From the NCBI GenBank assembly GCA_050084515.1, contig CM114271.1, positions 7,812,001 through 7,876,000 on the forward strand: DNA of 64,000 bases. Direction: 5' to 3'. A model generated the notes under the pieces. The model searched no databases. It was not told where the DNA came from and saw nothing but the letters and a program-made list of their open reading frames with translations. The stretch's first letter is position 1, and each line of letters begins with the position of its first letter. Shown here piece after piece: positions 33,601 through 64,000 of this stretch. A program made the position numbers and the translations under genes. This stretch comes from Blasia pusilla. Its lineage: Eukaryota.

Positions 33601-36600
33601 TGATTAGTACAAATCGGATGAAGCATTCATACAGGCCAGTGGAAGGTGATCCCTCAAAGGGGACGTCTCCTGAATCTGTGACTGTTCGGTGAGACTTATG
33701 TGGATGCTCCACTCCTGGATTAGTTTTGAGCTCATACGGATTGAGTTCTGTGACCCCGTTTCATCTGGGGTCGCCAACCAGGAGGTGGGTTCGTTTGGGT
33801 GAGGATTTGTAGTCTTCTGACGGATCATGTTGCAGAATAGGAGGGTGATGTCTACGAACTTGAGATGTCTCGTGGACAAGAGTAAGGTGATACAGGAATA
33901 TTTCCGGTGAGTGTGCATCACAAGAGTTCTTGTAGACCTGCATGATGATGTGTTAAATGAGAAAATGATTGACCAGCAGAAGTATCTCCTTGTACAAAGT
34001 CAGAACTAGCATCAGCTAGACCATCCATGATTTCAGCTTGTACACAATCAGCAAATCAGTTTCTATCTCTATTACCAAATCAGAGCCCTACCATGATGTG
34101 ACTCTTGTTATTATCTAAGAGATACTAAGAAGGATTCTACACAGTCACACCTTGCACTCACACTACAGATCCTCACATGTCACCAGCTCAGAGATCAGAC
34201 ATGGCTCACCTCATTGAGCACAAACAATCTCCATCAGCATACTAGACAAAACAATCTGCCTTCCAGTGAGGCTCTAGCAAGCACAGCAATTAGTCTCAAT
34301 CTCCTCTTCCTACTCTCTGATCACTCTGCAGCAGGACCAAGAACCTCAGGAGTCCTCACCAAAACTGTGCATGCTGTAGAATTGGCTTCTGCTCTCTAAA
34401 CAGAGACATTATATACATGAGGGTGAGCACTTCTGGCCCTTAGATCTTCTTGAACAGATCCATACCCTAAATAACAGATGGTGGCTAGCCCTAACTCGAG
34501 AATTGCCCTAATTCAAGGTTACCCTAAAAAGATAAAGGAACACTAAGTTATCTCTAGCTAACTAAATTAGTATCCAACTAAGTTAGTATTTGACTAACTA
34601 CTTTTAGGGCATGACTAAACTAGATATGAACTTTTAGGGCTGGAAGTTGATATCCTGATGATTCTCCTCAATCTGGACAACTTGCTGCTTTCTTCTGACA
34701 TACACCTTCAGATTTTCTGAACGTAGTTCTCTCCTTGATGGTTCTGGGAGTTGATCCACATCTCTCTCCAGGTTAGCCATTGGAGTTCCTGCATGAAAAG
34801 TAACAGGTTGTGATGGTGACTCACCTACTGCTTCAGAAATTTTCTTCTGATCTCCTTCCCAGGTTTCATCATACTGCACATCTCTACTTGTGATACTCTG
34901 TCCAGTCTTTGGATTACAGAGAGCATATCCCTTCACACCGGTCTCATATCCTACAAATATGAGCTTTTCAGCCTTCATACTCAATTTTGATCTTTGCTCC
35001 TTTAGGATCTGTACATAAGCTGGACAACCAAAGACTCTAAGATGGGAGATATCTGGTTTTTTACCACTCCAACATTCTTCTGGAGTCATCCCATTCAAAG
35101 CACAAGTAGGACTAACGTTCCTCAGAAAGTTTGCAGTCTTGATTGCAGCTCTCCAGAAGCTTTTCTTGAGATTTGCTTGCTGGAGCATGCTCAACCCCTT
35201 CTCTGATAGAGTTTCGTTTAGTGTCTCTGCTACTCCATTCTGAGAGGGACTGTCTCTGGCTGTGATATCAGCCAAAATCACTTTTTGTTGCTGAAAGGAA
35301 AAGACTCCATCTAAGGGAATTTTCTTCACTCGTCTTCCTGTTTATAGCTCCACCATCGCCAGAAAGTTCTTGAACTTATCAAGAACCTCACCTTTATGTC
35401 TCGTCTGATATACAAAGCTTTTTCTGCTGTTATCATCCACAAAAGACACATACCAAGCAGCTCCTCCCAGAGACTTGTGTGTCATGTAACCCCAAACATC
35501 GGTGTGGATGATGTCTAAAAGACCTGTTGCTCTACTCAAAGATTTTTTTTGGGAAATGATGACTTGTGAGATTTACCCTCAGCACATGCTCTACCAAACT
35601 CCAATCTACCATCTCCATTAAGTTTCGATTCTTCCACCATCTTCTGTAGAGATCGAATGTTCTCTGACAAATGAGCAAGTCAAAGGTGCCAAAGTTTGAT
35701 ATTGTTAGAGTTCTCTGCTTTCATTGCATCATCTACCAATTGAAACAACTTTTATACTGCCACACCATGACAGAGCACTCTTTCTCCCTTTGGATGATAC
35801 ATTTGATGTCAAGAAATAGTACAAAAATACCTTAGTCTGTCAGTTGATGGGCAGATACGAAGTTCTTTGTGAACTCTCGTACAAAAAGAACATTATGTAG
35901 AATCCCATCTTGACCATCATGATTCTCAAACTTCAGGGCACCTTTCAAATCCCAATAACAGGACTTTGATTTCCAGGTCCATATCTAACATACTGTGCAC
36001 TTGTCACAGGGTAAAACTCACAAAAAAGCTCTTTGTGGTAGCAAACATGAGCAGTTACTCCAGAATCAAGAAACCAACCTTTACTCTTGAGATTGTCCTT
36101 CTTGTTGGTGATTAATCCCATTCTGAGCAATTTGCATCTGCAACATGCTCAGTGATCATTGGACTCTTTTTGTGAGATATTTTGATGAATTTCTTCTTCA
36201 TCTTGGAGTCCTTGGAACATTGAGATGGATGTCCCTTGTCCCTGCAAGTGTAACAGATTCATGTATCTGTTCTTGTGTCTCTCTTCTCATGAGAAGTCTA
36301 CTTTGCAGGTTTGAACTTGAGTTGGGTTAACAGAGCTGAATCTACCTCATAAGCTTTCTTCCATTCTTAATCCCCTCTAATGACTTGATTTGTCACGTAC
36401 TCCCAAGATAGCTCTGCATCCTTGTTGTGAAGGATTTTGATGAATGTATTGAACCTAGGACTTAATGTGCCTAAGAAATGCAAGATGGAGTTCTTGCTTT
36501 CAAAGTCAAGCTGTAGGACACCTTTCACCTTCAACTGCATAGCTTGAACCTGCACAACATGAGCCTGCATGCTCTGACCTTCTTCAAATTCCATTGTTCT

Positions 36601-39600
36601 GAAAGTTTGCCAGAGTTGTAACCCTTCACATACAGCAACTTTCTCATACTGGTTTTGCAAGATTTGCCAAACCTTCCAAGCTAGTCTCTCTTCCTAAGAG
36701 TTTCAGCTGTAGACCATTCTATATGAAGACAACTCGTGGAGTATGGATCGCTATTCTTTTTTTCAAAGTCTTTGGTCCCATGTGGGTCTGTCACCTCAGA
36801 AGCCACTATATCCCAAAGTCCCCAAAGTCTCTTCTGTTGAAGGAGAAGCTTCATTTGGAAACACCAATGTGTATAGTTTGTACGTTCAAAAGATTCTATG
36901 GTCAGATTAACACCAAGATATCCTGAGACATTGCCTGATGACATGCCCTGTGGGGCCATAAACTTTTAAAATATCAGAGATTCCCTACAACCTGGCTCTC
37001 AGAAGCACACTTAGTGCAGTAACAACCACTCAGGTTAGATTGAAGAGGAAAGTACTAGAAAATCTGTACCACCAGACTACCTAGCATTCAGAAGCACACT
37101 TAGTGCAACAACCACCACTCAGGTTATTAGTAGTAGACGCCTTACATTACAAGACTCACTGAACCCCCATGTCGGCAGACCCTTCAGTCTACAAGCAGAA
37201 GCACTCTTAGTGCTTTAGCACACTGCACTACTAAGGTCAGAAGAACATTCACTCAGGTAAGCAAAGCACATTCAGTGTTGCTTAATCAGATCCTCAAGCT
37301 CAGAGTTGTGCATGAAAAGGTGTGAGAGAGTGTAAATTCGTAGAGCATCCACAAGGGGTTATATACAGCCAAAGGATCAAGTTCTAGGTTTTAGGGTTAG
37401 GTTCTGGCGCCCTTAGTAATTCACAGAAATACTGAGTTAAATTTATGGTAGCAACAAATTTATTTTTACTGTGGTAAAATACAAAGTTACTATAACTTAC
37501 TATTCACTACAGTAAGCTCCAAGTTACTATGTTTTTACGACATTGGTTATTGGGTTGGAGCTGCACACCGAGACACATGTATTCTCCCACAATCTGCAGA
37601 ATTTCCTTTCTCAGTCCCTGCCTAAAGGTGAAGGTGTATAGCCTCTGTCCAGTTGGAAGTTGAGATCCAAAGATGATTTTCTTGGTTTTCAACAGATTAA
37701 CTTCCTTTCGTGATTTGTTGCAGAAGTTTGAGAGTGTATTCAGATAGAGCTGGAGTCCCTATGCTGTTCTAGACATTAGAGCAATGTCATCTGCATACAG
37801 CAGCAGTGGTATCAAGCAACGTGCTAGGTCAGGTGAATTTTCATTCACCTTCTAGAGCACCTCCTCCAGTTCATCAATGTAGAGCCCAAACAATATAGGC
37901 GACAGGGGCAGTCTTGTTTGACTCCAGTGTTGGAAGACAATGCGGCAGATCTACCCCTCTCTGTGGCGATCTTTGCCAACACCTTAGCATATAAGACTTT
38001 GATTGCAGTAAGTTGCCGTGTCAGAACCCCCAACTCTTCAAGATGGTTCTGTAAAAGTGCCCCTTGGTACTTTATCAAATGCCTTCTTGAAGTCAACAAA
38101 ACAGCAAAATAGTTTTCCGGGATTGTGACCAGTTCTGGTCTTGGAGGTTTCTTCAATCAGTACGCTGAGTGTGAGAAGGTGATCTAGGGTGCTATGTGAT
38201 CTCCTGTAACCAGCTTGTTCGTTGGCTTGAACATTAATATCATCTCCCCAGTCTTTAAAATTTTATTTTTTTTAAAAAGCTATTTTTCAGAAACTGCCTC
38301 ACAAAAAAATTGTTCCTGCCTTGAAAGACATGTCAACCGTACTGAGTGTTGAAGAATGAAGATGACATTGATACAAAATGAGAAGCAAACAAATGCTGGC
38401 TTTGATGACACAGCTAATTTGTTTCTCCAAGTTCCAGTAAGTCACAGTAGCTTACAGATACATGGAAGCCTCACAGATGTCAAATAGTTAAGGAAACTTT
38501 GTACTTACAAAACAATGAGAGAGATGTGATTGATGTACTGCTCATAGACTTCCTCCTTACAGGAAGAAGAGACTCTCTGCACTATTGATGCCTCTTCATC
38601 TCCTCCAGCAGTAGGTCCTCCAAAACATGAACTCCTTCATTCACAATAGGTCAGCCACCCTAGCTGAGAGGCAGCAGTCATGAAGTTCGCAGGTCCAGCA
38701 GCTGGGGAAAGTAGGGAAGAGATTAAGAGTGCTTTGGTAAGCCTCTTGCTCTTAAAGGACAGCCCCTGGCTATCTTGAGCCCTAAAAGTCTCAAGTTCTA
38801 GAGAAATTTGTTATCTTTGTCAACATGAAAGAGAGGCAAGTTGAACGAAGAGTGAAGAGACTTAGGTCTGATGGAGGAGGAGAATATGCAAGTAAAGACT
38901 TTCAAGCATATCTCTCAGCCAAGGGGATATTAAAAGATGTTACGGCACGTGACAGCCCCCACCAAAATGGAGTAGCTGAAAGGTTGAATAGAACCTTGCA
39001 AGAGAAAGCCTTGAGCATGTTGCAACATGCCAAGCTTGGTCAAGAATTCTGGGGAGCAGCTATCATGACAGCGAATTATCTGAGGAACATCAGTCCCACA
39101 GCGGCCTTGAAGAATGTAACTCCAGAGGAGTGCTGGTCTGGTAAGAAACCTGACATTTCTAGATTGAAAGTGTTTGGTTGTGTTGGCTATGCCCTCACCC
39201 CTGATACACAAAGGAGGAAACTAGATGCAAAGGCTGACAAGTACATATTTGTTGGGTATGAAGAAGGGCTGAAAGGATACATGTTGTATAATCCTAGAAC
39301 CTGCAAGGCAATTCGAAGCAATGATGTGACTTTTGATGAGAAGAGTTTTTGGAAAGACTCTGAGCACAAAGAGTCAATGGTCACCAGAGTGATGCCAGTA
39401 ATCACTTCTGTTGTCACTCCTGTAAACATCCCTGTAGTGTCGAACTCACATCAAGATGCTGATAAGGAGGAAGTATCAAAGGATACACTTGCAGAATGTA
39501 GTGGAGGATTAGATACTTGCACCCAAGGTGTAAGAGAGGAAGATCATGTTGAAAATGATCAGCCTATGAAGGTGTACCAAAGGAGAAGTGCAGCCAAGCA

Positions 39601-42600
39601 AGTTATAGAGGCACATGAGTCCACAGAGGGAGTGATCAAGGAGATCTCAGAGCAAAGGAGATCTGGAAGAATTTCCAAACCTGTAGAAAGGTTGGGGATA
39701 AACGAAGCTCATTCTATTGAAGAAGGAGTTGTAGAGCCCAACTCTTTGAGTGAGGCTATGAGCAGGAATGATTGAAACAGTGGAGCAGGCTGTGGCAGAA
39801 GAAAAGGTCTCATTAGAAAAATGAGACATGGGAGTTTGTAGATTTGCCACCTGGTAGAAAGACCATTGGTTGCAAATGGGTCTTCAGAAAAAAAAGGGGA
39901 CCAAAGAATGAGATCTTGAAGTACAAGGCACGTCTGGTTGCAAAAGGCTTCAATCAGGAGGCTGGTTTAGACTATCAGGAGACCTTTGCTCCTGTTGCAA
40001 GGTATGGATCCATTAGAGTTCTCTTGGCATTAGCAGCTCAACATAATTGGGAGGTGGAACAGATGGATGTGAAGACTGCATTCTTAAATGGAGAACTGAA
40101 AGAGGAGATCTACATGGAGGTACCAGATGGTTATACTCATCCAGGCAAGGTGTGTCTCTTGAAGAGAGCCCTTTATGGCCTAAAGCAAGCACCTAGATGC
40201 TGGTATGAGAAGATGGATGCTTACCTGATCAGGAAAAGATTCCAACGTAGCAATGCAGATCAAGGAGTGTACTCCTTAGACTCCACTATGTACATAGCAT
40301 TGTATGTTGATGATCTTCTGATGCTAGGAGGGAGCTTAGACACTGTAAAGAGAGTGAAGAAAAACCTCTGTCACAGGACAAACATAGAAAGTGTATATCT
40401 ATGATGGGCATTACTCTAAACTCTCATTAAGAGGGAGTGTTGAAATTTGTTAATATCTAGTTTAGTCATGCCCTAAAAGTAGTTAGTCAAATACTAACTT
40501 AGTTGGATACTAATTTAGTTAGCTAGAGATAACTTAGTGTTCCTCTATCTTTTAGGGTAACCTTGAATTAGGGCAATTCTCGAGTTAGGGCTAGCCACCA
40601 TCTGTTATTTAGGGTATGGATCTGTTCAAGAAGATCCAAGGGCCAGAAGTGCTCACCCTCATGTATATAATGTCTCTCTTTAGAGAGCAGAAGCCAATTC
40701 TACAGCATGCACAGTTTTGGTGAGGACTCCTGAGGCTCTTGGTCCTGCTGCAGAGTGATCAGAGAGTAGTAAGAGGAGATTGAGACTAATTGCTGTGCTT
40801 GCTAGAGCCTCACTGGAAGGCAGGTTGTTTTGTCTAGTATGCTGATGGAGATTGTTTGAGCTCAATGGTGAGCCATGTCTGATCTCTGAGCTGGTGACAT
40901 GTGCAAGGTGTGGCTGAGTAGAATCCTTCTTAGTATCTAAGAGATACTAAGAAGGATTCTACTCAGCCACACCTTGCACTCACACTACAGGTCCTCACAT
41001 GTCACCAGCTCAGAGATCAGACATGGCCCACCATTGAGCACAAACAATCTCCATCAGCATTCTAGACAAAACAACCTGCCTTCCAGTGAGGCTCTAGCAA
41101 GCACAGCAATTAGTCTCAATCTCCTCTTCCTACTCTCTGATCACTCTGCAGCAGGACCAAGAGCCTCAGGAGTCCTCACCAAAACTGTGCATGCTGTAGA
41201 ATTGACTTCTGCTCTCTAAACAGAGACATTATATACATGAGGGTGAGCACTTCTGGCCCTTAGATCTTCTTGAACAGATCCATACCCTAAATAACAGATG
41301 GTGGCTAACCCTAACTCGAGAATTGCCCTAATTCAAGGTTACCCTAAAAAGATAGAGGAACACTAAGTTATCTCTAGCTAACTAAGTTAGTATCTGACTA
41401 ACTACTTTTAGAGCATGACTAAACTAGATATTAACAAATTTCAACAAGGTAAGCCTCTTGCTCTTAAAGGACAGCCCCTGGCTATCTTGAGCCCTAAAAG
41501 TCTTTAACTAAGACTAAGGGAGGCTATTGGGAAACCCTAAAGGATTAGTTAACAAACCTAAAAATAGATTCTTACATACAAATAATAAAAGTAACTTTTC
41601 ATAGTAAAAAGGTAAAGAAGTACTTTTTTGTTCCCAATTGCAATTTCAACAGACATCCTCTCTTAGTAGTATGGATTTGGAATAAATCCATTCCCTGGTG
41701 CAGGCGAGTCAGAGTTCTCATCTGTTCTTGGCTGACTTCTTGTTGGAGAGGAAATTCTTATGGCTATAACATGGATTGGCAGGATACGCGGAAGTTGGAA
41801 CAACTCCATTGTGATCCAGTGCAGCGATTGGTTGCAGATTGTGTGCTTACTGAGCTTGACACTGCAATTGTTACAGACCGAAGTGGAAATTTTTGTGTCC
41901 TATCTTGTGCAACAGTAGCAGATGGTATGTCTATAATCCTGAAAAGATATTGACTTCCGTTGCAGAGATATGATGAAGGCAGTTGGTTCCTATGTAGTGA
42001 ACCGTTTGCATCTTTCTGGGGTTATGTGTAGCACAACTTGGAGGTATTATTTCTGTGTCCTGTAATAAGGGAATTTTTTTTTGTAAAACAGAGAGAATCA
42101 GCCCAGAGCGCAATTTGAGTATAAGCTGTTGGTATCACGTGGGTGAAACGGTTGTACGCATAACAAAGGTCAGCTTGCATTGTTTTGAGATTACTGTACT
42201 TTCTCTGCCATAGTTTGTAGGAAGTGTGGGTTTCTTTCTTGTTCAGTTCAGAAGATCCATATTCCTATCCAGTGACCTAAGTTCATGTCAGTGATGAGAA
42301 ACCCACCATTCACCAATTTCTTTGGCCAGATCTGATTACTAATAGGCTTTGGTTTTCATTTCTTGGTTTGCCTTATCTGCAGGGATCCTTTGCATACAAA
42401 GCACCATTTGAGGAATCTTTGAAAATGTGTGGTGTCAGAAGCTTGTCACCAGATTTATCGGGTGCATCCCTTGTGGGAAGCACACTTCTAGGAAGTGTCA
42501 TTATATTCATGGAAGTTTCAAGGTGTGGATTGCAATTGAGAACTGCTTTTTGTGGGCATAGTGGATTGGTTTGAAAGCTAATTGTGTTTGTTTCATTGTT

Positions 42601-45750: not shown

Positions 45751-46640
45751 TGTCACATCTTAGTTAGGCAACGGGTAGAGTTCTACCATGTGGACGACAT
45801 AGAGGGTCAACGAGCGGTTCGGATGTAACTTTGTCTTGAGATGTTGGATGATGTTCATGACTGATCTATTGCCTCGGGACGTTATTCATGGTGATTCCCC
45901 TTCTTTGCTATTTCTGGATAGGTAATCCATTGACCGATTCCACGGTCATCCGATAACCATCCGGACACGAAGCACAAGGACTATGAAGGAGCGGGGAAAA
46001 TAACCCGCCCTAATCGGGGTGGAGTTCGGAGGGCCCGTAATAGCTTCGGATTTTTGCAATCCAGCCTGGCAATCAAGGTTATAAGAGAGGGAAAGATGGC
46101 TTTCCCAAGCCATCTTTCTCATGTTGAGCCTGAGGGTTACCTCTTTTTCTTGTGTATGTAGGAACTAGGGTGCTAGCATCCGGATTCCTTGATAGCGGAA
46201 GGTGGATGTGGTTCAATATGCCAATGTAGATTGAGGAGTGGAGTCTTGGGCAGGGTGACCCATTTTTACTCTGATTTTACATGAGAAATATGTGAGGGGG
46301 CAAGGGGAATTCATTGTATGCAAGTAGGCAAGCAAGTTGCCTTGATGGGGAGCCCCTAGAGACATGTGTGTCACCTTGTTTGCCGTTTGATTTGTTTGGA
46401 AGGCCGTGCGCGGAAGCGTTGCTAGTTTTCCACATATTTTAGCTAGAAGGGGATTAGGATAAAGCAATAGCAGGGGTCCGGCAACAACTCTCAATTGTAG
46501 CGTAGCAGGTAGTATTGACGTGTGAGCGGCACGTGTCGAGAGAAGGAGAGAAAGAGTGTTGAGTAGGTCTTGGAGCCGTCGGGGGGCTGTCAGGTAAAGG
46601 CGACTAGAGGATTAGGGTTAGGTTGTAGCTTGTTAGATTA
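45751..46640 (+). mobile_element. 5' end of a DNMT-Gypsy family element (repeat B followed by leader C)
   Basis: Starts TGTCACATCT; 45751-46272 is the reverse complement of 52990-53462; then continues into sequence matching 1965-2330 rather than repeat A. Confidence 0.75.
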
Positions 46641-46859
46641 GGCTAAGTAGGCTCGGGAAGGATAAGGTGATAGTTCTTTATTAGTAACCCATCGATTGCG
46701 CTTTGTCGATCCATTCTATCAGACCCCCAAAAATTTTTCTCGCATGTAAGATGACATTTGGATACCCACCTTGACAGTGGGTCCATATCCTTATGCATCC
46801 TGACCCAATGTGTTTCCACTATCATTCAAAGCTAGCATGTTGAGATGCCTATTACTAGG

Positions 46860-47362
46860 AGCCGTAATGAATTCCACTTTCCCCATGACCGAGCCCATGA
46901 CAACTTTCTTATCTAAAATCAGACTAAAAATGGCTCACATGAGCAGCTCCATTCTCAAATCCACATCCACCTATCGAACTACGTCCTCCATTATGAGGGA
47001 ATCCGGACGCTAATACCCTAGTTCCTACACACAAATAAGTTTCTCAAGCCAACATGAGAAGGTTGGCTTGAGAAAGCCATCTCTCCCTCTTTTATAGCCT
47101 TGGTGGGAAGAGCCCGGCCCTTCCCCCAAAATAACCTCCTCACGATAACCTGCATGCACAGGTTATTGGGTAACCTTTGACTCGGTCAATCGGTCACCTA
47201 CCCAACAGACCAAAATAGAAATAGAAATAATATTGTTGACACAATAGACGTGTCGTCAACCTCATCGGACATCTTAGGGCAAAGTTACACCCAAACAGAC
47301 CGGTGACCCCCTATGTTGTGGACGTGATAGAACTCTATCTGTCGGCTAACTAAGATATTACA
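46860..47362 (-). mobile_element. Second 5' end of the DNMT-Gypsy family (repeat B plus start of C), inverted relative to 45751
   Basis: ~46915-47362 aligns with 52990-53462 (GGAATCCGGACGCTA, CAACATGAGAA, CAAAGTTACAC). Confidence 0.7.
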
Positions 47363-47639
47363 ACTTCCCTACTTGGAACATATATGTTGCACATCTCACT
47401 ATATTTTTATAACATCACATATCCAAAATTTTCTTCTCTAAATGATTTCGTTTCTTTATAGTTTCCAAATAAGCTTATCTAAACTTATGTTAATTGTTCG
47501 AACAACTCAGATGTTCTGCCTTATATAAGTCCACATGAAATATGAAAGTTTCCAAATCCTTTATTACTACGGTATATCTCATGCATTATTTTTCTTTAGA
47601 ACATCATATATTGAGTGTCCTGCGCCTACTCTCCTTTAG

Positions 47640-48609: not shown

Positions 48610-48637
48610 TTTACAGCATCATATCTACAAGGTATTA

Positions 48638-49262
48638 TATCGTGCGCATACACCTTGCTATACAACATACATCGTTGTGACCAAACACACTCAGAAACAC
48701 AAACTATCTTGTGTTAACTCATGACATCCAAACATCGAGACGAGAAATATCAAAATATCTCTAATAAATCAAATAGATCTCTCACATAATCTCTCCATGG
48801 TGCACACAAATGTCTTTCTCTCTCGTGTCAAACCAAACCCACTCTCCTAATGAGACGCTTGGATTATACACACAAGGCAAGGAGGACCATAGTTTTGCCG
48901 CCTCATGCCAAGAGGTTCAATAAAGAGACAATGAAAATGGTATACCTCCAATTCTTTCTCTTGGAGGTATACTCCCTTCCTTCTGCTAAGCTCTTTCCAT
49001 GGTAACCTATGCTCGCAGGTCACCTCTTGGGCTCTTGACCTACTATAGCGGGTGAAGGGCTACTTCCCAAAGTGGGAAGTCAACTATACTCAAAATGGGA
49101 ACTTACCAAAAATAGTTTCTCTACATGGCTCCAAATAAGCTGAAACGAGGGGAAAACATGCTCTCTCAAGCCACAAGTCATCTTAGACCTCTTGAGAATG
49201 TCGTCCAATACCCTTGAAGGCGCTCTAATAGATCTCGTCGATCTATCCTAAAAGGCGTGACA
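48638..49262 (-). repeat. B'+A' terminal unit of a DNMT-Gypsy-related subfamily
   Basis: TATCGTGCGCATAC...GGCGTGACA; similar over its length to 49602-50228. Confidence 0.75.
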
Positions 49263-49601
49263 ATTGTTCTCTCAATGATTCGGAGTTCTTTAGAGCATCG
49301 TGTATGCAAGGCATTCTTCTCACAATGATTCTGAGTTCTTTGTAGATTTCAAGTAAGGATATTTATAACTTTCATGATCATTCAAACATCTCAAATGTAC
49401 TACCTTGGATAAGTTTGCACTAAATGTGAGGATAACCAAATCTTCTCAAACTCTGACATATCATTATTTTTTCTATCAAATTCAAAAAAAATCTTATTTT
49501 GACATACTTTTTAATCACTCCATGGAATTATAGGAATGCACAAAGCAGCTCTAATTTCTACTTGCATTCAAATTTTACTACAATATCACACATAAGTGAA
49601 T

Positions 49602-50278
49602 TGTCGTGCGCATACACATCGCTGTCACCCAACACACACACAAACACGCACGATCCCATGCTAACTCATAACATCCAAAAAATGAGACAAGAAGTACCAA
49701 AATATCTCCAATTAAAACAAGATCCAATCTCTCTCATAACACCATAGTTCTCATATGTGTGCACTCTCACATGTCTCTCTCAATGTCAAACCAAACCCAC
49801 TCTCCTAATGAGAGGCGTGGGTTACACACACAAGGCAAGCAAGACCATAGCTCCGCCGCCTCATGCCAAGAGGTTCAACAAAGAGAGAATGAGCTCTCAA
49901 GCTCTCTCTCCTTGAGGTATACCCCTCCCCTCTCCCAAGCTCTCTCCATGATAACCTATGCTCCCAAGTCACCTCCTTGGCTCTTGACCTGATATAGGAA
50001 GTCAAGGGCCACTTACCAAAAATTGAAAGTCGATCACATACTCAAAATGGTACTTATCTAGAATAGTAAGTTCCTCAATATGGTTCCAAATAAGCGGAAA
50101 CGAAGGGGAAACCTCCTCTCTCAAGTTTCCCCGACTTAATAGGTCATCCTTGACCTATTAAGCCTGTCCTCCGCTACTCACGAAGGCGCTCTACTAGATC
50201 TCACCGATCTATCCTAAGAGACGTGATAATTGTCGTGCGCATACATATCGCTACACAACATACATTGCTGTCACCAAA
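49602..50278 (-). repeat. A'-NN-B'-A' 3' terminal structure (inner A' truncated)
   Basis: Unit 49602-50228, spacer AT, then a restart TGTCGTGCGCATAC at 50231-50278. Confidence 0.78.
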
Positions 50279-52334: not shown

Positions 52335-52553
52335 ACGTCGTGATGCATGTCGATTTCAGGGGAGTTCAATTAAGGGCCTGTCCCCATGGAACCAGTTTTG
52401 GGTCTATGGATCTTGGGGATCTACGATCCAAACTTCACTGACCAATATCGGGTCATGGGTATGTCTGCGCCGCCAAAAAAACACGTCGTGGAAAGTCCAG
52501 AGACGACCCTTGGAGTTTCTACGTGCTACAACCCGTATCATTTTCAAATTTCA

Positions 52554-52844
52554 ATAGCGATCATTTTGCCAATAATGTGTCACATCTAAGATGTTGATAT
52601 TCATAAGGAAACCTATGATGCATTGGAAAAGTTATTCCGGACATTTACAAAGGCGAGAAAACTTAAATTGAAACAACAATTGAACGAATTGAGAAAAGGA
52701 TAGTAGAACATCAATGAGTATGTTTTGAGTATCACACATATTGTTGATCAATTGAATAACATTGGAGTGTTAGTAGAAGACGATGATCTGATTTTTTTCA
52801 CTGTTCAAGGCCTTCCAAAATGATTACAAGTTCTTTGAGACCTC
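52554..52844 (+). mobile_element. Copia gag remnant related to 9670-9970; insertion site of the DNMT-Gypsy
   Basis: Nucleotide match (GATGTTGATATT...GATGCATTGGAAAAGTT...TTTGAGACCTC) ending exactly at TGTCGT 52845. Confidence 0.8.
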
Positions 52845-53600
52845 TGTCGTGCACATACATATCGCTACACAACATACATCGTTGGTCATATCTACACCAC
52901 AAAACACCGATCTTCCCCACACACGGGTCGATCCACACATGTACAAAAATCAACTCATACATATACATGGAGATCACAAAAAAAAAATAAAGAGTAGTAA
53001 AAATGGCACACCCGGCCTAAAACTCCACTCCTCAATCTACATCAGCATATCGAGTCTCGTCCACCCTGTGCTATCAAGGAATCCGGACGCTAGCACCCTA
53101 GTCCTAGCTCACACACATACAAGGGAGATGCTCCAACGGCCCAACATGAGAAAGATGGCTTAGGAAAGCCATCTTCCTCTCTTATATAGGGTTGGGAAGA
53201 GCCAAAAGGCTCTTCACCTAAAAATAGCCCTCCCCTTGGTAACCTGTGCGCATAGGTTACCAGGGGCGGGTGACCTGATTAACAAGTCACCCGGCTGTAA
53301 AAAAACTCAACATGAAAGTTGTCAAAAACAACGTTCCTGACACAATGGACCTATCCTCAACCTCATCCAACACCGTGGGACAAAGTTACACTCAAGATAG
53401 TCCGCTGGCTCCTACGCCCTATCCAAGGTAGATCTCGGCCTATCGGCTACTCAGATGTGACAGCTGTCGTGCGCATATATATCGCTACACAATATACATC
53501 GTTGGTCACATCTACACCACACAACACCGATCTTCCCCACACACGGGTTGATCCACACATGTACAAAAATCAACTCATACATATACATGGAGATCACACA
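52845..53600 (-). repeat. 3' terminal repeats A(53598-53465)-GC-B(53462-52979)-A(52978-52845)
   Basis: The two 134-bp A copies are near-identical; junction TGTGACA-GC-TGTCGTG on the + strand. Confidence 0.88.
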
Positions 53601-53677
53601 ACCGCCCTCTAGCTGGCAGTTGGATCCCCCCAACTCCAGATAGAAAATATCACATCTTTATGACATGACCTACTACC

Positions 53678-53830
53678 CTATACACATCTCGGACACATCC
53701 ATTGTCTCGTGGAAACCACATCAAGAGGGGGGGGTCAGACATGACATATGCCACCCTCGAGAACAACCATCACACACCAACATGGTGGCTGCACCCCTCG
53801 CAGATCCGCACAACATACACCTCAAGCCTG
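53678..53830 (-). CDS. PHD finger (C4HC3) at the C-terminus of the Gypsy polyprotein
   Basis: CMLC...LVCDGCSRGWHMSCLTPP, then after a +1 slip in a C run LDVVSTRQWMCPRCV and TAG. Confidence 0.88.
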
Positions 53831-53869
53831 CAGGTACCACTGCCAAGCTTGGATCCACCGTCCCATCTA

Positions 53870-54990
53870 CGTTAGGAAGATGACATGGCGCACAATTGCG
53901 CACATGATCCTTCCAAACCAACCATCCCGTCCCTCCAACATGAGGACTCCGGTCGGTAATACCTCGCGCACACGTAGGATCGTGCGCCCTGCAGTGACAT
54001 CTAGCGTCGTGGGTGCCGCATGTTGTAAATACACGTAATCTCGAGGATGAAACCTCCTAATCCTTGGACGATAACCTCCTCCACGAATGGTCGCGTACCT
54101 CAATGTATCTCTATGCTAGGCAATAGCTAAGTTATCAAAGGCCATAGGCATAACTCTACGAAAAACTTCTGCCCTCTGAGAACATGCTTGTATCCACACA
54201 TCTGGATCATCAAGATCTAACACCTCCGCCATGTCACGTCGAATTGCTGCAGGTAAATCTGGCTCTCTCCCAAAGAGCAAAAAGTACAGTGAAAATGACG
54301 CCAAGGATGCCTGCCGACTAAAGTGATAACCCATAGCCAACCATGGCAACTATAGGTCCCACTCCCTCAACTGTCCCCGCTGCAAGCCATACTTGCGCAA
54401 TCCTCTCTTCACCGTCTGTACCACTCTCTCCGCCAACCCATCCGCCTCGCTGATCCATCAACGTCTGATCACACAAGGCCTGAAATTCTCCCATGAACTC
54501 GGTACCCTGGTCAGTCAACACCTCCTCCGGTGCACCAAAGTGACTAAGCACACGATCTAGAAACGCATAAGCTGTTCCCTTGCTTCGCCTTGTCTGGTAG
54601 TGCCACCAACTCTATCCACTTGGAGAAATGCTCCACCATGACCAACACGTACCTATGATGACGCCCTGTCAATGGAAAAGGTCCCGCGAAGTCTAAACTC
54701 CACCGATAACCTAAACCCATAATCGGCAAAGGATGTCACTGCAGAGTGGGAGCATTGAAGGATGCTCGCACTCTGTCACATACCATACATCTGGCCACAA
54801 ACTGCTGTACCCCAGTATGCATGCCGCGCCACCAATACTGAACCTGGAGTAAGCTGTAATTACGCTTTACTCCGAAATGTCCCAACTCCTCATGGGCATG
54901 TCGCACTACACATGCTCGCTGGGAAGGATGAGGTACCACTCGTATCCTACCATCTCCCCATACCCGCAAAATATGAGTCCCCTCCCACCT
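53870..54990 (-). CDS. Gypsy DDE integrase (frameshifted)
   Basis: HHCC zinc finger HEELGHFG...CMVC, core WSLDFAGP and VLTDQGTEF, FLLFGREP. Confidence 0.88.
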
Positions 54991-55289
54991 GAACCTCTTG
55001 GCTCTCTGTAGGATCCGATCTCGCTCCCTAGCACTCACTATACTCGCAATGACGCCAGTGTGCAATAACTCCACAACCTCCACGTTGTCATGGATATCAC
55101 GACCACCTGTCGCCTCCTCACTAACCTCTGGATCCAAAGACTCATCATCCAACCCCACCACTGGAGTCATCACGTGTGGCTGACCTGCCATAGTCAACCA
55201 AGAAAGATAGGCAGATGCATGCCAATCGGGCACCATCTCCTCATCACTCTCTCCGTGCCATCGAGCTCTTATGTCGTCTCTTTGACTCG

Positions 55290-56540
55290 GACATGGGTTA
55301 CGACTCAACCCATCCACATCCTGGTTCAGCCGACCTGGCCTATGAACCACCTCAAACTCATACTCCTGTAGTAATAGAGCCCACCTGGCAAGCTTGCCCG
55401 TAAGCTTGTCGGACTCCATCAACCACCTCAACGGCTGATGATCAGTGATAAGTGTGAAAGGGTTGCCGAATAAATAGCACCTAAAATGTGCCCATGCCCC
55501 ATCTGCGAGCCCAAGCACTCTCCCTCGTAGGAGGAGCCGCCTCTGCAATGTTGTTCGATCGGCTCGCGTGAGCCACAACGAACTCCCTCTCCTCGTCATC
55601 CCTGTGAGTAAGCACTGCTCCTAGACCCAACATGCTCCAATCCGTATGTAACTGGAATGGGCGACCCCTAACCGGTCTCTGTAAAATGGGTGAGGATGTC
55701 AACCTGTCCTTGAGCTCCTACAATGCTTGCTCCTTATCATCTCCCCACAACCAAACCTGATCAAGTCTCGTCAACAAGGTCAAAGACTTTGCGATTGCAC
55801 TAAAACCCTTGACATACCGTCGATAGAAGTTCGCTAGTCCAAGAAATGCTCGGACTCGACTCACATCTGTAGGGCGTGGAATCTGCGCAATAGCCTCTAC
55901 CTTAGTCAGCTGAACGCCTAACCCACTCGGGTATATGGTGTGTCCCAAGTACTCAATCTGCTCCTGAAAGAATCTACACTTGCCTGGATGTAACTTCAGT
56001 CCATGTAACTGCAATTGCCGAAATACCTCCTCCAAGTGTTGCTCATGCTCCTCAAACGTGGAACTGAAGATAAGAATATCATCTATGTAACATCGTACAA
56101 AATCCAAGCCAGCCAGAATCCTATCCATCACTCTCTGAAACTCTGCAGGCGCGTTCTTCAACCCAAATGGTAAGAACCGCCATTGATACAAGCAATCTCT
56201 CCCAAACCGATCTATCCCCCATAATGTTGTCTTCTCCCTGTCCTCCAACCTGATAGGAAGTTGATGATAGCCAGCACGGAGATCTAAAGTACTGAAGATC
56301 TTTGCATGCCCTACCGCATCAAAGAGCTCCTCAGGAGTAGGCATGGCGTACCGATCTGACCTCCTTTGTCGGTCGATAGGACGGTAATCTCCACACATCT
56401 GCCTATCCGTCCAATTGCCTTACATATATCCTTCTTCGCCGGCATGACTATGGCAGACGCATACTCCCCATGTGATAACTCCAAAAGTCCTGCCTCCAAC
56501 AAGTCCTGACTCCTACTCTGAATCAAGGCTCGCTCCATAT
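55290..56540 (-). CDS. Gypsy reverse transcriptase and RNase H (frameshifted)
   Basis: CGDYRP, LDLRAGYHQ, PFGLKNAPAEFQR, YIDDILI, RAFLGLANFYRR, HTDWS, ITDHQPL, KLARW. Confidence 0.92.
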
Positions 56541-57039
56541 CGAGAATACTGAGGGTCGATTTAAAGATCCCATATCACTAGCCAACTCAATCCGTATCCC
56601 GGGACCCTTCAGCATACCCAAGTCTCTCATACTGAAGGCAAAACAACTGACATGCCCTCTTAGAAACCTATGAACTCGCCGTCGCTCTCCTCCTATCAAC
56701 TTGAGACCTATCACAGGCTCCCAAGTCTCCATCGTGACCTCACTCAGAGAGGACGCAACCTCCGGCTTTGGTTGCTATGTAGCAACCCTAGCCACATCAG
56801 CAACAGCCACTCCACCTTGACCTCCTACACCATGCTCCACATCCGAAAAATGAACATGTGCTACTCTAGCCGCCTTCGCACTCTCTGCTCGAACGACGTC
56901 CCAGGAAGTCCATGGGTGCCTATCTCTCCTCGTCTCACCCCCAACCAATGCCTGTACAGACCCTGTAGGCAATGGTCCAACTCGTGGACGTGACGGCATG
57001 GATGACACTCGCATGCGTCTCCGCTCAGCCATACCTAGG

Positions 57040-57990
57040 CTGACTATCCATGTGAGACAGTTGAGGTCCATCGCCTGCCCCAACACCTGTCTCCGTGATG
57101 CCTCAATCATCCCTGGCACCGCCGTAGTACTGGTAGTGAACCCCATGGCGTGCTCGCGCTCATCTACTGTAGGCTCCTCCAATGCTCCGATCACCTCATC
57201 CCAAATCATGCCTGGCCCTCTCTGACGAAAGGCATGGGATATTGGGAAGCTCACCAACGTAGGTAAGGCTGCCTTCAACTCCCCCACCCTATTGGCCATG
57301 GCCAACGGTGGTCTATCATCCCGTGTCACCACCTGAGATCGACGCCCTGAGCCCAAAATAGCATCCACTGTGAGATGTGGTGCTCTCTGGACTCCACTGT
57401 ATGCTCGACTCAGTACCTCTGATGATATCAGGTTCGTCCACCACAGTCGTGGACGATGGGCACGTGACCCAACTCTCGCTGCATCTAACAACACAACAGG
57501 TCCCAACTAGGACCTCACTTGATGTACATTCGTCATCACACGTGCACGAGTGTCTCCCAACAACGGCACGTTCTCCAAAATGTACGCTGGAGAACATATC
57601 TGACTCTCCTGCAAGTGTCGTACTACTCGCAGCATCTCCCAAAATATCCCTGACCTCGGATCCTGCAATCCAAATCCTCGGCCAGCTGATGAATGACCTT
57701 GACATGGCCATCCAGCAATCACCAAATGAATGGTGCCAACTCTATCCAGATCTTGCGCCCCCACCAAAGAGATGTCGGCGGGTAGCGTATGCTGGTATCC
57801 CCGTACTGCAGATACCGACAATAACTCAGGATACCTCTGGACCAATCTCGCCACGTGACGTAATGATACTCGCCGCGCGGTCTCATCTCTCTCCACATTA
57901 AGGTATTGATGCACCCGTATGCCCGCCTGCAATAGTGCAGCCAAACTGGTGCTAATCCCTCCAAAGAGATCTAACACCCTAACACCCTCC
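57040..57990 (-). CDS. DNMT3-like C5-cytosine DNA methyltransferase domain within pol (one in-frame TAG at 57507-57509)
   Basis: Motif I VLDLFGG, motif II VE, motif IV AGWPCQG, motif VI LENV, motif VIII AHRPRLWWTN, motif IX EREHAMGF, motif X VLGQAM, in canonical order in one frame. Confidence 0.92.
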
Positions 57991-59109
57991 TCTGGGCACT
58001 GCCACACAACAGGTGTGGTATCTAGTGGGGTCATCGTGTCCACTCCAAGAGCCTGATCGCCACGTGACTCTCGCGGCTGTGGGATAAAAACATGACTCCA
58101 CGCCTGCCTCACGAGGTCGTCGACACTCCTCTATAGCTCCCGAATCGTACCCCCAATGGCGAAGAGGCCTCGCCAACATGGGAAGAGACACCCGCCATGG
58201 CCTGTCTCTCCGTGGGACTATGTGCTACTGGGACATCCTCCGCATGTGCGTTCCCCTCCAACAACTCTCCTGTCCAGCTAACACTACCTGTGAAAGCTGC
58301 CAACGTGGTCACAGACTCGCCTCGTGATCGACCACCTCGTCCCGCAAACTGCACGGGTAACAGACTCATCCGGCCGTCACCTGACCGTCATCCTGGCCGA
58401 TAAGCAACGGTCTCCTCCCATAAGTCAAGGATGAATCCTAGGGGATATATCACTGTACTCCCCACCAAGACATCGTACGACTCAGTTGGTGTCGTAATCA
58501 CACGTGTGCACACCATAGCACTATCCGTCGCATGCTCTGGCTGGACTCTAACAACAATCTCATGTTGAGTCATATACTGAGTGGGTGATACGCCCCCAAT
58601 CGAGGTCTGTATCTGGAAGGGACAAGGCTCAATGTTGGCCTTCCGTAACCCCAACGCTAAACACGCCGCCTTCCCTAACATCAAGGGTTGCGCTCCCTAA
58701 TTAAGTACGACGCGCTGCGGGGAGTATACTGTCCCCGTCGGACTAACCAAGAAAAAAACTGCAGCTCAGTTATCCGGTAACACTACTCCAGGTATCACCA
58801 CTGCTCGCTCTATTGCCGGTCAAGCTAGCATATCTACCAACTTCGCCGCCGCCGCATGCCATGACTCTATGGGGAACATCCCCAGCACCAGCTCTGAGGG
58901 CAAGTCCACCACCTCCTCAACTACCTCTGAACAAGAAGCAGTCATCTCTCCACACTCACACAACATGGCGGCCAACCGGAACACCTCAGCTGGTCCAACT
59001 CCCAACGTCGCCAACTCTATGGCGGAAAATAGTGGAGTCTGACTCACTCTGGTGGCCACCTGCAACACTATGGTCGACACTGACTCCACTCGAGCCGGCA
59101 TAGGATTTG

Positions 59110-60936
59110 TCACTCCAACTCCTCGTGACGTCGACGTGAGGTGCTCGAATCAGAGGCATCGCTGGTCGCCGAGGCACCATCGATGGTGTGTGTAGTGCCT
59201 CCGACAATGTGAACGATCATTTGTGGAACCCTGGCCTGCCGCCCATCGGTCCCCTCTGGTGGGTCAATCTCAACTCCACCTCTCGATGGCTCGGTGCCTC
59301 TCGCAGCACCCCGAGTCACCACTGCAGCTGCCTCAACCTGGGCTGCACTACACATAAATCCCATACAAGCGAGATCCTCATCTGGGTCAGGGTAAGAGGT
59401 AGAAACTAGAGTTACACTAGCTGCCCGTAGCTCCGTGCCTTCCCTAAGCTGCATCATTGTCATGGTAGCAATCCTCTGCTCCAACCGATCGATGCGTGAG
59501 AGAAGTGTCGGCTCTGGTGCTCCTGCTCCATCTCCTCTAACTGGTGGTGGTCCTCTACCACCACGACCAGGAAGAACTCCCCGACCTCCTCTAGGAAAAC
59601 CGCCCCCAGGCCCTCGGCCTACCTCTGGACGTGCCCCTCAGCAAAGGTCAAAACACCTATCCCTAGTGTGACCATATCTGTGGCAATGGTCACACTGGTG
59701 CTGTGGTGGGGCCATCCACTGTGGCTCCTGAGCAATCGGAGGCACTGGTAGTCCTCTCCCATGTTGTGGGCAGTCTCTCTGCCTATGGGCCCCTCCACAC
59801 ATCCAACAAGACCACACCGGTCCCTGTTGGGCAACATATGTAGGTGCGGGTCGTTGCCTCATAGGCTCACGGTACCCGCCCTGCTCTCTAGGCACACGCT
59901 TGGCCCGCTCCGTGGTATCGTGCTGGTGCTCGTTGTTGGCACTGTGGGGTCACTGCCGCTCGCGGGTGGACCCGTCGACTCTCGAGAAAATCCAGCGGTC
60001 ACTACCTGCTCCTCACTCATGTTGAGCTCAATACGCTCAGACAACTCAAAGACCACCTTCAATGTGGGCTTCGCTGTGTGAATCAGCACCGCATCTCAGA
60101 CTCTCCTCCGTAGTTCTCGGTCCGTAACCCAGACCAATCTTTGGGTGATTGCGCCTCGATCCTCCAAATGTAGCAATGATCAGCCTCCTCATGCGTGTGA
60201 ATGCCTCTCTCAGACTCTCACCCGATCGTCGCTGAAAATCCTGTAGACTCTTCAGCTTGTCGGTGCGTATGCCTTATTAGTTCTTCCCCAACTGTCGGAA
60301 TAACTCCACTGTGGGGCTGAAGCTGGGTGGCTCTCTACCACCAGAGGTCTCTGCCACATCGCCTGTCTCACTACCCTCCTCTCCATCTAGTCTCCGGGCT
60401 GATGGTGTGGATCTCTCTCCTCTCACAATCCCATCATATGCCTCGCGACCACTAGTGGACACATACCCTGGAGCCCAATACATCCTCCAAGCATCGATCT
60501 CTACTGAATATAGTGATCAAAACTCCATGTAGTCATCCATCAGAGGACCCTCCAAGTGCTGGAACAACCCCTTCCATGCCATGAAAGGGTTGAACCGTGT
60601 CAGGGACCATATCTCTTGGAAGTCGCACAATGTGTCGAACTCCTGGACAAAATCATCTAAGTCGATGGTGCCCACTGCACCCGAGAAACGATGTATGCCC
60701 CGATGGCCCATGTCGTCCATCTCCTGCCAAGTACTACTGTCTCCGTGTATGATCTCGTCATCAGACCCAGTGTCCAGTGATGACGATCCAGTCTCGGATG
60801 GATGTCGAGGGAGCTCCTCACTGGTAACCCCTCGGTATCTCACTCCACTCCGTGTCACACCACTACTACTGCTCGCACTACCCCGTTCTTCCGAACCCTG
60901 GAAGAACGTCGTGATGACAAACCCTGTCTCACCCAC
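59110..60936 (-). CDS. Gypsy gag (degenerate)
   Basis: IHRFSG...DDFVQEF...LFQHLEG; knuckles CWMCGGAHRQRDC and CDHCHRYGHTRDRC. Confidence 0.75.
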
Positions 60937-62078
60937 TCAAGCACTCAGACTCACCGAGAGTCTCCCACACGCCTCACTAGCTCACCTATGCGAACATCAA
61001 TCCCGTGATGACATACCCGGCCTCACGCACGCTCAACGCTCAGGCTCACCATGAGCCTCCCAACTGACTCACCTAACCTAACGACACACGGGATTCCTGA
61101 GGGTCATGGGAGGGGCATAAGGTGGAATGTAGAAGTCATGAGCAGAAGAATAAACAACACTTATTTTGGTTTTTGGAGGCTTTCTAAAGATTTGTGGCAA
61201 GAGATTCCGACCCTAAACTATTTTTTTGGCCTCTCTGTGGTTATGGACACGAGCTTCTAACTCTGTGTACTTCTCGTGTTAATTGAAATTTCACAACTCT
61301 TGAGACACATTTTGGAAATCTCTGTGTACTGGATTCAGGCTCAATTAGAAAAAATTTAAAGTTGAAATGTCTAGTGCATACTGGTAGTTGAGCAAGAACT
61401 GGCCAATCAGGATTAGTCCACGAGCTTCAGTTCGATCTTGTGGACTATGGACTGGAGCATAATGTCTCCAAGTGGCAGAACCACGAAACTCACCAATCCT
61501 TGATGTTAGTCAAAGCCATTGCCATCACTACGGTAGTACCAAGTGCAACATGATGTGATAAGACATTTCATGCAAGCTCTACGCACCGACTTGTTTGGCC
61601 TCATGGTATTAGGGTCGATTAAGAGGCCTTGGCTGATTTGATGCAGGGAGAGAGTTTTAGGAATTCGATTATGATTTTGAAAATGAGAAGAGACGCGAAG
61701 ATTTAATCCTGTCCTTGAAAATATGAGCACATCTTTATTAAGAAAGAAATTTATAGGATTGAAAGCGTGTTGATCCAATCTTGAAGCAATCAGACATAGG
61801 TGTCCCATCCAAACTTGACCTCAAGAAAAAGCAACCATATCTAGATGCCTTTGCCTCATTAGGAATTCGGCCTTATTTTTGCCTATCTGTCCATTCTCGG
61901 AAGTCAATCTCAAGAGCTAGTGCCTTCCTTTTTCAGAGTATGGCTCTTGCTTGTAAGGTTTTGGGAGGAAGAAATTTTCTGATCCTCCTTTCCACACCCG
62001 AACATCATATCCTCCCTAGGGCTCACGAGGTCACTCCTTTCTCTGGATATGGTTATTGTATGACGGGAATTCAATTAT

Positions 62079-64000
<1,922 letters not shown>

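What the first reader, a model, noticed from the sequence alone, without database searches (positions are those of the whole stretch)
53678..53830. PHD finger at the integrase C-terminus: chromatin reader plus DNA writer in one retroelement
Seen: a complete C4HC3 PHD (CMLC...CDGC...WHMSC...WMCPRC, one frameshift) ends the polyprotein. Known: chromoviruses carry a chromodomain at this position to steer integration; PHD fingers commonly read the H3 tail; animal DNMT3 pairs its MTase with a PHD-like ADD domain. Inference: the element may couple histone-guided targeting with de novo methylation.
Basis: partly seen in the sequence, partly recalled or inferred. Interest (0 to 1): 0.72.

Follow-up and report, generated by a model that had tools for sequence, protein, structure and literature searches.

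The report
Histone-reading finger on plant retrotransposon integrase
This is a real but broken histone-binding zinc finger at the tail of the integrase of a very abundant plant jumping gene that also carries its own DNA-methylating enzyme; both add-ons are already known in such elements, and the finger most likely helps choose where new copies land rather than steering the methylating enzyme.

Summary
Observation confirmed. A C4HC3 PHD finger (PF00628, 29.4 bits, cut-off 24) ends the pol frame of a decayed copy of a high-copy Ty3/gypsy family; 23 of 29 other copies hold it whole in one frame, and three read integrase core to PHD without a stop. All 20 PHD-anchored copies carry the DNMT3-like domain. 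But reader and writer are not one unit here: a conserved in-frame TAG in a tobacco-mosaic-virus-type readthrough context (37 of 38 copies; 11 of 12 close relatives elsewhere) separates gag-protease-DNMT from RT-RNaseH-integrase-PHD, and some relatives keep the PHD without the DNMT. The finger belongs to the class that reads the unmethylated H3 tail, not ADD. Best reading: it tethers the integrase to chromatin; coupling to methylation is at most indirect. PHD-bearing Gypsy elements (Gypsy-7a_cRei), DNMT3-bearing Gypsy elements (Klebsormidium) and reader-plus-writer elements (EpiLTRs) are published; this scan noted the same thing on other DNA. Not found in my searches: the pair's spread from green algae to bryophytes, the readthrough stop, and split terminal repeats joined by a conserved palindrome beside 4-bp target duplications.

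The parts
53678..53819 (-). PHD finger (C4HC3) ending pol, with its stop codon; frame break inside, near 53727-53735
53820..54930 (-). Integrase: HHCC zinc finger 54894-54772, DDE residues near 54699, 54518, 54439, GPY/F-like module 54055-54029, linker to PHD; several frame breaks in this copy
   Evidence: (PF17921, PF00665)
55360..55500 (-). RNase H (part matched by Pfam)
   Evidence: PF17917
55721..56560 (-). Reverse transcriptase (YIDD at 56089-56078)
   Evidence: (PF00078, E 1e-30)
56769..56777 (-). Conserved in-frame TAG plus CAR-YYA hexamer between DNMT and RT: probable programmed readthrough site
57066..57974 (-). DNMT3-like C5 cytosine methyltransferase, motifs I, IV (PC), VI (ENV), VIII, X in unrearranged order; one stop inside in this copy
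   Evidence: (PF00145)
58391..58696 (-). Aspartic protease-like region (weak Pfam support only in a relative)
59640..61087 (-). gag-like region with two Cys/His knuckles (59808-59770, 59694-59653); homology to other copies ends at 61087, the 5' leader and repeat A1 are missing in this copy
53465..53602 (-). Repeat B1 (138 bp), preceded by a short purine-rich tract
53459..53468 (.). 10-bp palindromic B1/A2 junction with a 2-nt spacer
52983..53462 (-). Repeat A2 (about 480 bp); its twin A1 opens full copies
52845..52981 (-). Repeat B2, 3' end of the element (ends CA)

Best explanation
The PHD is the C-terminal accessory domain of the integrase of a green-lineage Ty3/gypsy clade. It is made only as part of RT-RNaseH-integrase-PHD, which in this sub-clade is reached by readthrough of a leaky UAG after gag-protease-DNMT (stop shown, readthrough inferred). 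After protease processing (inferred from how Ty3 elements work) it stays on the integrase and binds the free, K4-unmethylated N-terminus of histone H3, docking the integration complex on nucleosomes outside active promoters (inferred). The DNMT is a separate, Gag-level product that most plausibly acts on the element's own DNA or on the new copy; any link with the PHD is co-delivery in one particle, not an ADD-like intramolecular switch. The window copy itself is dead.
For: PHD in one stop-free frame with the GPY module in 26 of 41 sequences and with the whole DDE core in 3. PHD listed in 119 of the 120 best long relatives (query contained the PHD, so biased), including Calypogeia, Marchantia, Sphagnum, Klebsormidium, Pleodorina, Volvox, Tetrabaena, Haematococcus proteins. 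Nearest solved PHDs: CHD4, PHF12, KMT2C/D, KDM5 PHD1, DPF, PHF21A, BAZ2A/B, ATXR5, AIRE, UHRF1; that most of these read the unmodified H3 tail is recalled. In 144 relatives: Asp after Cys3 137, Pro and Gly of the PxGxW pocket 127 and 118, Gly (not the cage Trp of H3K4me3 readers, recalled) two before His 134. Complex prediction with the host's H3 1-32: 0.40, best control 0.01, contact agreement at least 93%, partner pLDDT 55; weak support, such scores were reached by 5 of 78 solved complexes and by all 4 mismatches that passed, and solved PHD-H3 complexes exist so it may be from memory. Stop: TAG in 37 of 38 copies, all 37 followed by CAR YYA, the TMV readthrough consensus (PMC2754532); in-frame TAG-CAR-YY in 11 of 12 close relatives from other records, with three different hexamers fitting fully; many database proteins end 50-140 aa after the DNMT without RT. 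PHD kept without DNMT in P0174, P0190, P0208, P0215, P0231, P0234, nested among DNMT-bearing relatives.
Against: No binding measured. No insertion bias seen: 13 of 28 flanks versus 114 of 320 evenly sampled tiles lie in repeats (crude library). Within-family pN/pS of the PHD is 0.92 against 0.27-0.57 for integrase segments (copies were mostly picked for likeness to this region and are decayed, so inconclusive). This family has no acidic residue just before Cys1 (present in 86 of 144 relatives), which K4me0 readers use (recalled), so K4 discrimination may be weak. Readthrough is not shown; an in-frame Met lies 15 codons after the stop, so re-initiation or a spliced/subgenomic RNA is possible. 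The stop is absent from 20 of 20 more distant loci and from P0132, P0133, P0201.
Confidence: 0.6

Rival explanations
1. One reading: the PHD targets or licenses the DNMT (as ADD does in animal DNMT3), so the element writes methylation where the finger binds.
For: Tight co-occurrence in the family; DNMT and PHD share one protein in 55 of 120 long relatives, mostly with the DNMT directly before integrase; catalytic Cys kept in 96 of 101 relatives, motif VI Glu in 101 of 103; a readthrough product would hold both; the K4me0 preference is the same as ADD's (recalled).
Against: Conserved stop between them here; no ADD match; about 1,050 aa of RT, RNase H and integrase between them; DNMT moves, degenerates (P0160, P0167, P0193) or is lost while the PHD stays.
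Confidence: 0.15
2. The PHD is not a histone reader here but a structural or nucleic-acid/protein-binding zinc finger that helps integrase assembly or processing of the palindromic repeat junction.
For: Missing acidic residue before Cys1 in this family; no flank bias; the clade also shares an unusual end structure that needs special processing.
Against: The H3-pocket residues are the most conserved non-ligand positions from chlorophytes to liverworts; weak-positive complex prediction.
Confidence: 0.17
3. The PHD is a passenger in this family, inherited but no longer under selection.
For: pN/pS near 1 within the family.
Against: All zinc ligands and pocket residues match relatives across the green lineage; pN is the lowest of ten segments tested; the sample is biased and mostly post-insertion decay.
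Confidence: 0.08

Closest known systems
KnitGypsy-Dnmt3 of Klebsormidium nitens (de Mendoza et al. 2018, PMC5890265; section 9, passages and a search of 3 supplementary files seen; figures not seen)
   Same: Gypsy domains, unrearranged DNMT3-like domain, DIRS-like split repeats, streptophyte host. K. nitens integrase-PHD proteins are 52-54% identical to this integrase.
   Different: There the DNMT is described as inside the Pol ORF; here a conserved stop separates it from RT. 'PHD' does not occur in that paper's main text or searchable supplements, though its Fig. 4c may draw one. Host here is probably a bryophyte (inferred).
Gypsy-7a_cRei and REM1 of Chlamydomonas (Craig et al., PMC9940879, passages seen; REM1 paper not held, known only as cited)
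   Same: Gypsy Gag-Pol with a PHD finger; intergenic bias (2.6-fold) and chromatin-guided insertion already proposed.
   Different: No DNMT or readthrough mentioned in the passages seen; near-ordinary LTRs; relationship to this clade not tested.
EpiLTRs (bioRxiv 10.64898/2026.05.21.726589, passages seen)
   Same: Histone reader and DNA methyltransferase(s) in one LTR element.
   Different: Chromodomain plus DAM plus a DNMT4-related enzyme; stated to be distinct from streptophyte Gypsy-DNMT3.
Chromoviruses (chromodomain at integrase C-terminus; cited in PMC6673714) and CopiaMBD
   Same: Reader domain on integrase thought to steer insertion.
   Different: Reader is a PHD; no chromodomain found.
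Animal DNMT3 ADD domain
   Same: PHD-like reader of unmethylated H3K4 (recalled) in the same genetic unit as a DNMT3 catalytic domain.
   Different: Not an ADD; not adjacent to the catalytic domain; in another reading frame product here.

Membership tests
PHD finger (PF00628) | C4HC3 ligands, score over the curated cut-off | tested here: met
Ty3/gypsy LTR retrotransposon | Order gag-PR-RT-RH-IN with HHCC/DDE integrase | tested here: met
Ty3/gypsy LTR retrotransposon | TG...CA ends and short target-site duplication | tested here: met
   exact 4-bp duplication in 18 of 22 copies with both ends called; 1 with one mismatch, 1 five-base, 2 mis-called ends
Ty3/gypsy LTR retrotransposon | Two identical whole LTRs flanking the internal region, tRNA primer site after the 5' LTR | tested here: not met
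   repeats are split (A1-internal-B1-A2-B2); no TGG primer site seen right after A1
KnitGypsy-Dnmt3 kind | Unrearranged DNMT3-like domain with catalytic motifs | tested here: met
   all 29 PDB matches are DNMT3A/B/C; motifs I, IV, VI, VIII, X in order
KnitGypsy-Dnmt3 kind | DIRS-like repeat structure with Gypsy domains | tested here: met
KnitGypsy-Dnmt3 kind | DNMT in the same ORF as RT and RNase H | tested here: not met
   same frame but split by TAG in 37 of 38 copies; met only if read through
KnitGypsy-Dnmt3 kind | Same clade as the K. nitens element in DNMT and RT trees | tested here: inconclusive
   a K. nitens integrase-PHD protein falls among these relatives, but no K. nitens protein with DNMT was retrieved
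Chromovirus | Chromodomain at integrase C-terminus | tested here: not met
   no Chromo hit; stop follows the PHD
Chromovirus | RT phylogeny within the chromovirus clade | not tested
   no named reference RTs were fetched
ADD domain | GATA-like plus PHD-like finger next to the DNMT3 catalytic domain | tested here: not met
   no ADD family; none among the 60 of 69 PDB matches shown
H3K4me0-type PHD reader | Conserved Asp after Cys3, PxGxW pocket, no aromatic cage (features recalled) | tested here: met
H3K4me0-type PHD reader | Measured binding to unmodified H3 tail | not testable with these tools
   only a weak prediction
TMV-type (type I) readthrough site | In-frame UAG followed by CAR YYA | tested here: met
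   function not measured

The most novel reading that the evidence does not exclude
An ancient green-lineage Ty3 clade carries a three-part chromatin strategy: a leaky stop makes the DNMT3-like enzyme at Gag level so that it is packed in the particle and methylates the element's own new DNA; a PHD docks the integrase on K4-unmethylated nucleosomes, so copies arrive pre-methylated in quiet chromatin; and the DDE integrase inserts a circular intermediate opened at an internal palindrome (as IS3-family transposases and foamy-virus junction cleavage do, recalled), which would explain the split repeats with 4-bp duplications.
Probability: 0.25. Interest if true: 0.82.

Novelty: new variant of a known kind. 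Interest (0 to 1): 0.5.

Why it matters
What the methyltransferases and reader domains captured by retrotransposons actually do is open. This clade makes it testable: relatives are annotated as ordinary genes in Marchantia polymorpha, which has histone and methylation maps, and a PHD-bearing Gypsy is naturally active in Chlamydomonas. The family is also a large part of its host (10,843 of 200,000 sampled bases at 85% identity or more), and such copies inflate DNMT and PHD gene counts in plant annotations. The readthrough stop predicts a large excess of DNMT over integrase, which argues for action on the element's own DNA.

Tried and rejected
Chromodomain after the PHD: none, the frame ends. 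ADD identity: rejected. Insertion preference from flanks: 13 of 28 versus 114 of 320, no enrichment. Selection on the PHD within the family: ratios 0.86 (one reference copy) and 0.92, inconclusive; one search was a script error. Methylation footprint: CpG observed/expected 0.69 in the element versus 0.74 in sampled DNA, uninformative. Expression: no RNA holder listed; reads of three RNA-seq runs of one study, sharing only a species label with a run that held 5% of the words, lay mostly on one strand but were mostly under 95% alike and 72-75% ran on into unlike sequence: they show transcription of relatives in some organism, not of this copy. A loose palindrome pattern (24 of 50 loci versus 58 of 280 tiles) includes chance hits; only the 14 tight matches are used. 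Three copies labelled 'short' are long forms with eroded junctions. Literature: nine searches found no paper on PHD plus DNMT3 in one Gypsy element, on this readthrough site, or on the palindromic junction; REM1 paper not held; Craig's 2021 thesis, Repbase entries, subscription papers, figures, and bioRxiv supplements were not seen and may cover these. Host species was not determined.

Full report
1. Observation. The finding lies on the minus strand. Three-frame translation shows CMLC, CDGC and WHMSC in one frame, a change of frame in a homopolymer run near 53727-53735, then WMCPRCV and TAG at 53680-53678. The first half alone passes Pfam's PHD cut-off (29.4 versus 24 bits). Upstream on the same strand lie integrase (PF17921, PF00665), RNase H, RT, a C5 methyltransferase (PF00145), a protease-like stretch and a gag-like stretch. 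The window copy has many stops and frame breaks and is dead.

2. The family. DNA searches of the own genome gave 3,254 and 3,399 first-look candidates for the PHD and DNMT regions; 40 were scored each, at 95-100% identity. Twenty evenly spaced 10-kb stretches hold 10,843 bases at 85% identity or more and 25,290 of any likeness. Of the 29 other PHD loci returned, 23 hold the whole finger in one frame. I fetched 10 kb around 20 of the 39 other PHD hits and 20 of the 39 other DNMT hits: 20 of 20 PHD-anchored copies carry the DNMT, and 18 of 20 DNMT-anchored copies carry the PHD; the two without it also lack integrase and RNase H. Among these 40 plus the window, the GPY-like module and PHD share a stop-free frame in 26, and the DDE core runs into the PHD in 3. 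None of the 41 is uninterrupted throughout. A1 and A2 repeats differ at 12-26 of about 480 sites in nine copies, mostly transitions: old, methylation-eroded insertions; I give no date because the host's rate is unknown.

3. Reader and writer are in different frame products. No sequence had DNMT motif X and the start of RT in one stop-free frame (0 of 41). The cause is one in-frame TAG present in 37 of 38 copies where the site was found; all 37 are followed by CAR YYA; the exception borders an internal deletion. CAR YYA after UAG is the consensus needed for readthrough in tobacco mosaic virus (PMC2754532, passages). In metagenome loci (80 kept of 437) an in-frame TAG-CAR-YY lies 37-45 codons before RT in 11 of 12 close relatives (RT 62-71% identical); three fit fully with three different hexamers, eight read CAA CCC and are probably one redundant family; 0 of 20 distant loci (RT 40-46%) have it. 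One relative has 1,369 and 1,047 open codons either side of the stop, with protease and DNMT before it and RT-RH-IN-PHD after. Database proteins agree: many Marchantia, Calypogeia and unnamed proteins end shortly after the DNMT. So the DNMT is expected at Gag level and integrase-PHD at a fraction of it (inference). An in-frame Met 15 codons after the stop leaves re-initiation open.

4. The wider clade. Integrase-PHD relatives occur in liverworts, Sphagnum, Klebsormidium and chlorophytes. Among the 120 best long hits the DNMT lies between RNase H and integrase in 29, before integrase with no RT seen in 23, before RT in 3; 30 begin shortly before RT, 4 have a long N-terminus without DNMT, 31 are fragments. 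A FastTree of 94 integrase cores (fragments left out, midpoint root) separates a group with DNMT before RT from one with DNMT before integrase; six PHD-bearing, DNMT-less proteins nest inside the second. The PHD follows the integrase; the DNMT moves, decays or goes. The DNMT's only PDB matches are DNMT3A/B/C (29 of 29); the catalytic Cys is present in 96 of 101 relatives covering it (61 PC; counted from the rows), so it is probably active in most.

5. What the PHD reads. Its nearest solved relatives are CHD4, PHF12, KMT2C/D, KDM5 PHD1, DPF, PHF21A, BAZ2, ATXR5, AIRE and UHRF1, mostly readers of the unmodified H3 N-terminus (recalled). In 144 pattern-matched fingers from 240 proteins the Asp after Cys3 (137), PxGxW pocket (127, 118) and Gly two before His (134) are conserved; the cage Trp of H3K4me3 readers (recalled) is absent. 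This family lacks the acidic residue before Cys1 seen in 86 of 144. Folding the finger with the host's H3 1-32 and zinc gave 0.40 against a best control of 0.01, a weak pass that may come from memory of solved PHD-H3 complexes. No ADD or chromodomain was found. Flanks are not detectably enriched in repeats (13 of 28 versus 114 of 320) and within-family pN/pS is uninformative or against (0.92).

6. Ends of the element. Full copies read A1 (about 480 bp), leader, coding region, purine tract, B1 (138 bp), a 2-nt spacer, A2, B2; they begin TG, end CA, and 18 of 22 with both ends called have an exact 4-bp duplication. A shorter form, A1-internal-B1, also has the duplication. The B1/A2 junction is a 10-bp palindrome; its spacer is GC in 13 of 24 and otherwise mostly a deamination variant. 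The same split repeats and junction recur in both groups of relatives (tight match in 14 of 50 loci). Inference: reverse transcription treats B-A as the LTR, and integrase opens a circle at the palindrome; two-repeat circles give the long form, one-repeat circles (or later B1-B2 recombination) the short form. The window copy lacks A1 and shares its 3' flank with a copy on another contig.

7. Known work. KnitGypsy-Dnmt3 already joins Gypsy domains, DNMT3 and DIRS-like repeats (PMC5890265). PHD fingers in retrotransposons are called common (PMC6673714, PMC8557442, bioRxiv 2021.11.30.470311; passages), and Gypsy-7a_cRei has one in Gag-Pol with targeting proposed (PMC9940879). EpiLTRs join a chromodomain with two methyltransferases. 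PMC6338049, PMC12344493 and bioRxiv 2021.02.12.428880 (passages) add nothing on a PHD or on TE-borne DNMT3 in Marchantia.

8. Verdict. Real feature, known parts, partly new arrangement. PHD as an integrase tether 0.6; direct PHD-DNMT coupling 0.15; non-histone role 0.17; passenger 0.08. The readthrough stop and palindromic junction are the best-supported additions. New variant of a known kind; interest 0.5.

Noticed in passing
window 52337-61087 and L002/L031 (G000:C3 near 26.9 Mb): The window copy and the C3 copy share the same 3' flank and are 96-97% identical, so one insertion was duplicated with its flank; the C3 copy keeps its 5' repeat and target duplication, the window copy does not.
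   Followed up: partly
window 6705-7139 (+), 1263-1405, 46080-47365, 48626-50270: Diverged fragments related to the PHD end and to repeats A and B (67-85% identity): older subfamilies or solo repeats.
   Followed up: partly
window 23935-27321 (-): Long host-like exons (668 aa open frame) resembling a splicing-factor/DDB1-type beta-propeller protein (recalled, not searched).
   Followed up: no
window 40550-41349, 34212-34631: 98%-identical inverted and direct repeats of about 350 bp, probably copia LTR pieces beside copia integrase/RT frames at 38786-40404.
   Followed up: no
window 2431-6427 and 62360-63999; 30120-33423: Two related LINE-like stretches (91-93% identical pieces) and another LINE with endonuclease and RT frames.
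   Followed up: no
P0160, P0167, P0193; P0155, P0187: Volvocine relatives have degenerate DNMT motifs; many chlorophyte-type DNMTs have EC/SC/AC instead of PC at motif IV; two carry a G-patch; chlorophyte-type proteins extend 150-400 aa past the PHD with no Pfam match.
   Followed up: partly
L090, L092: Related loci where the DNMT is followed directly by a partial integrase and PHD with RT and RNase H deleted: possible non-autonomous derivative.
   Followed up: no
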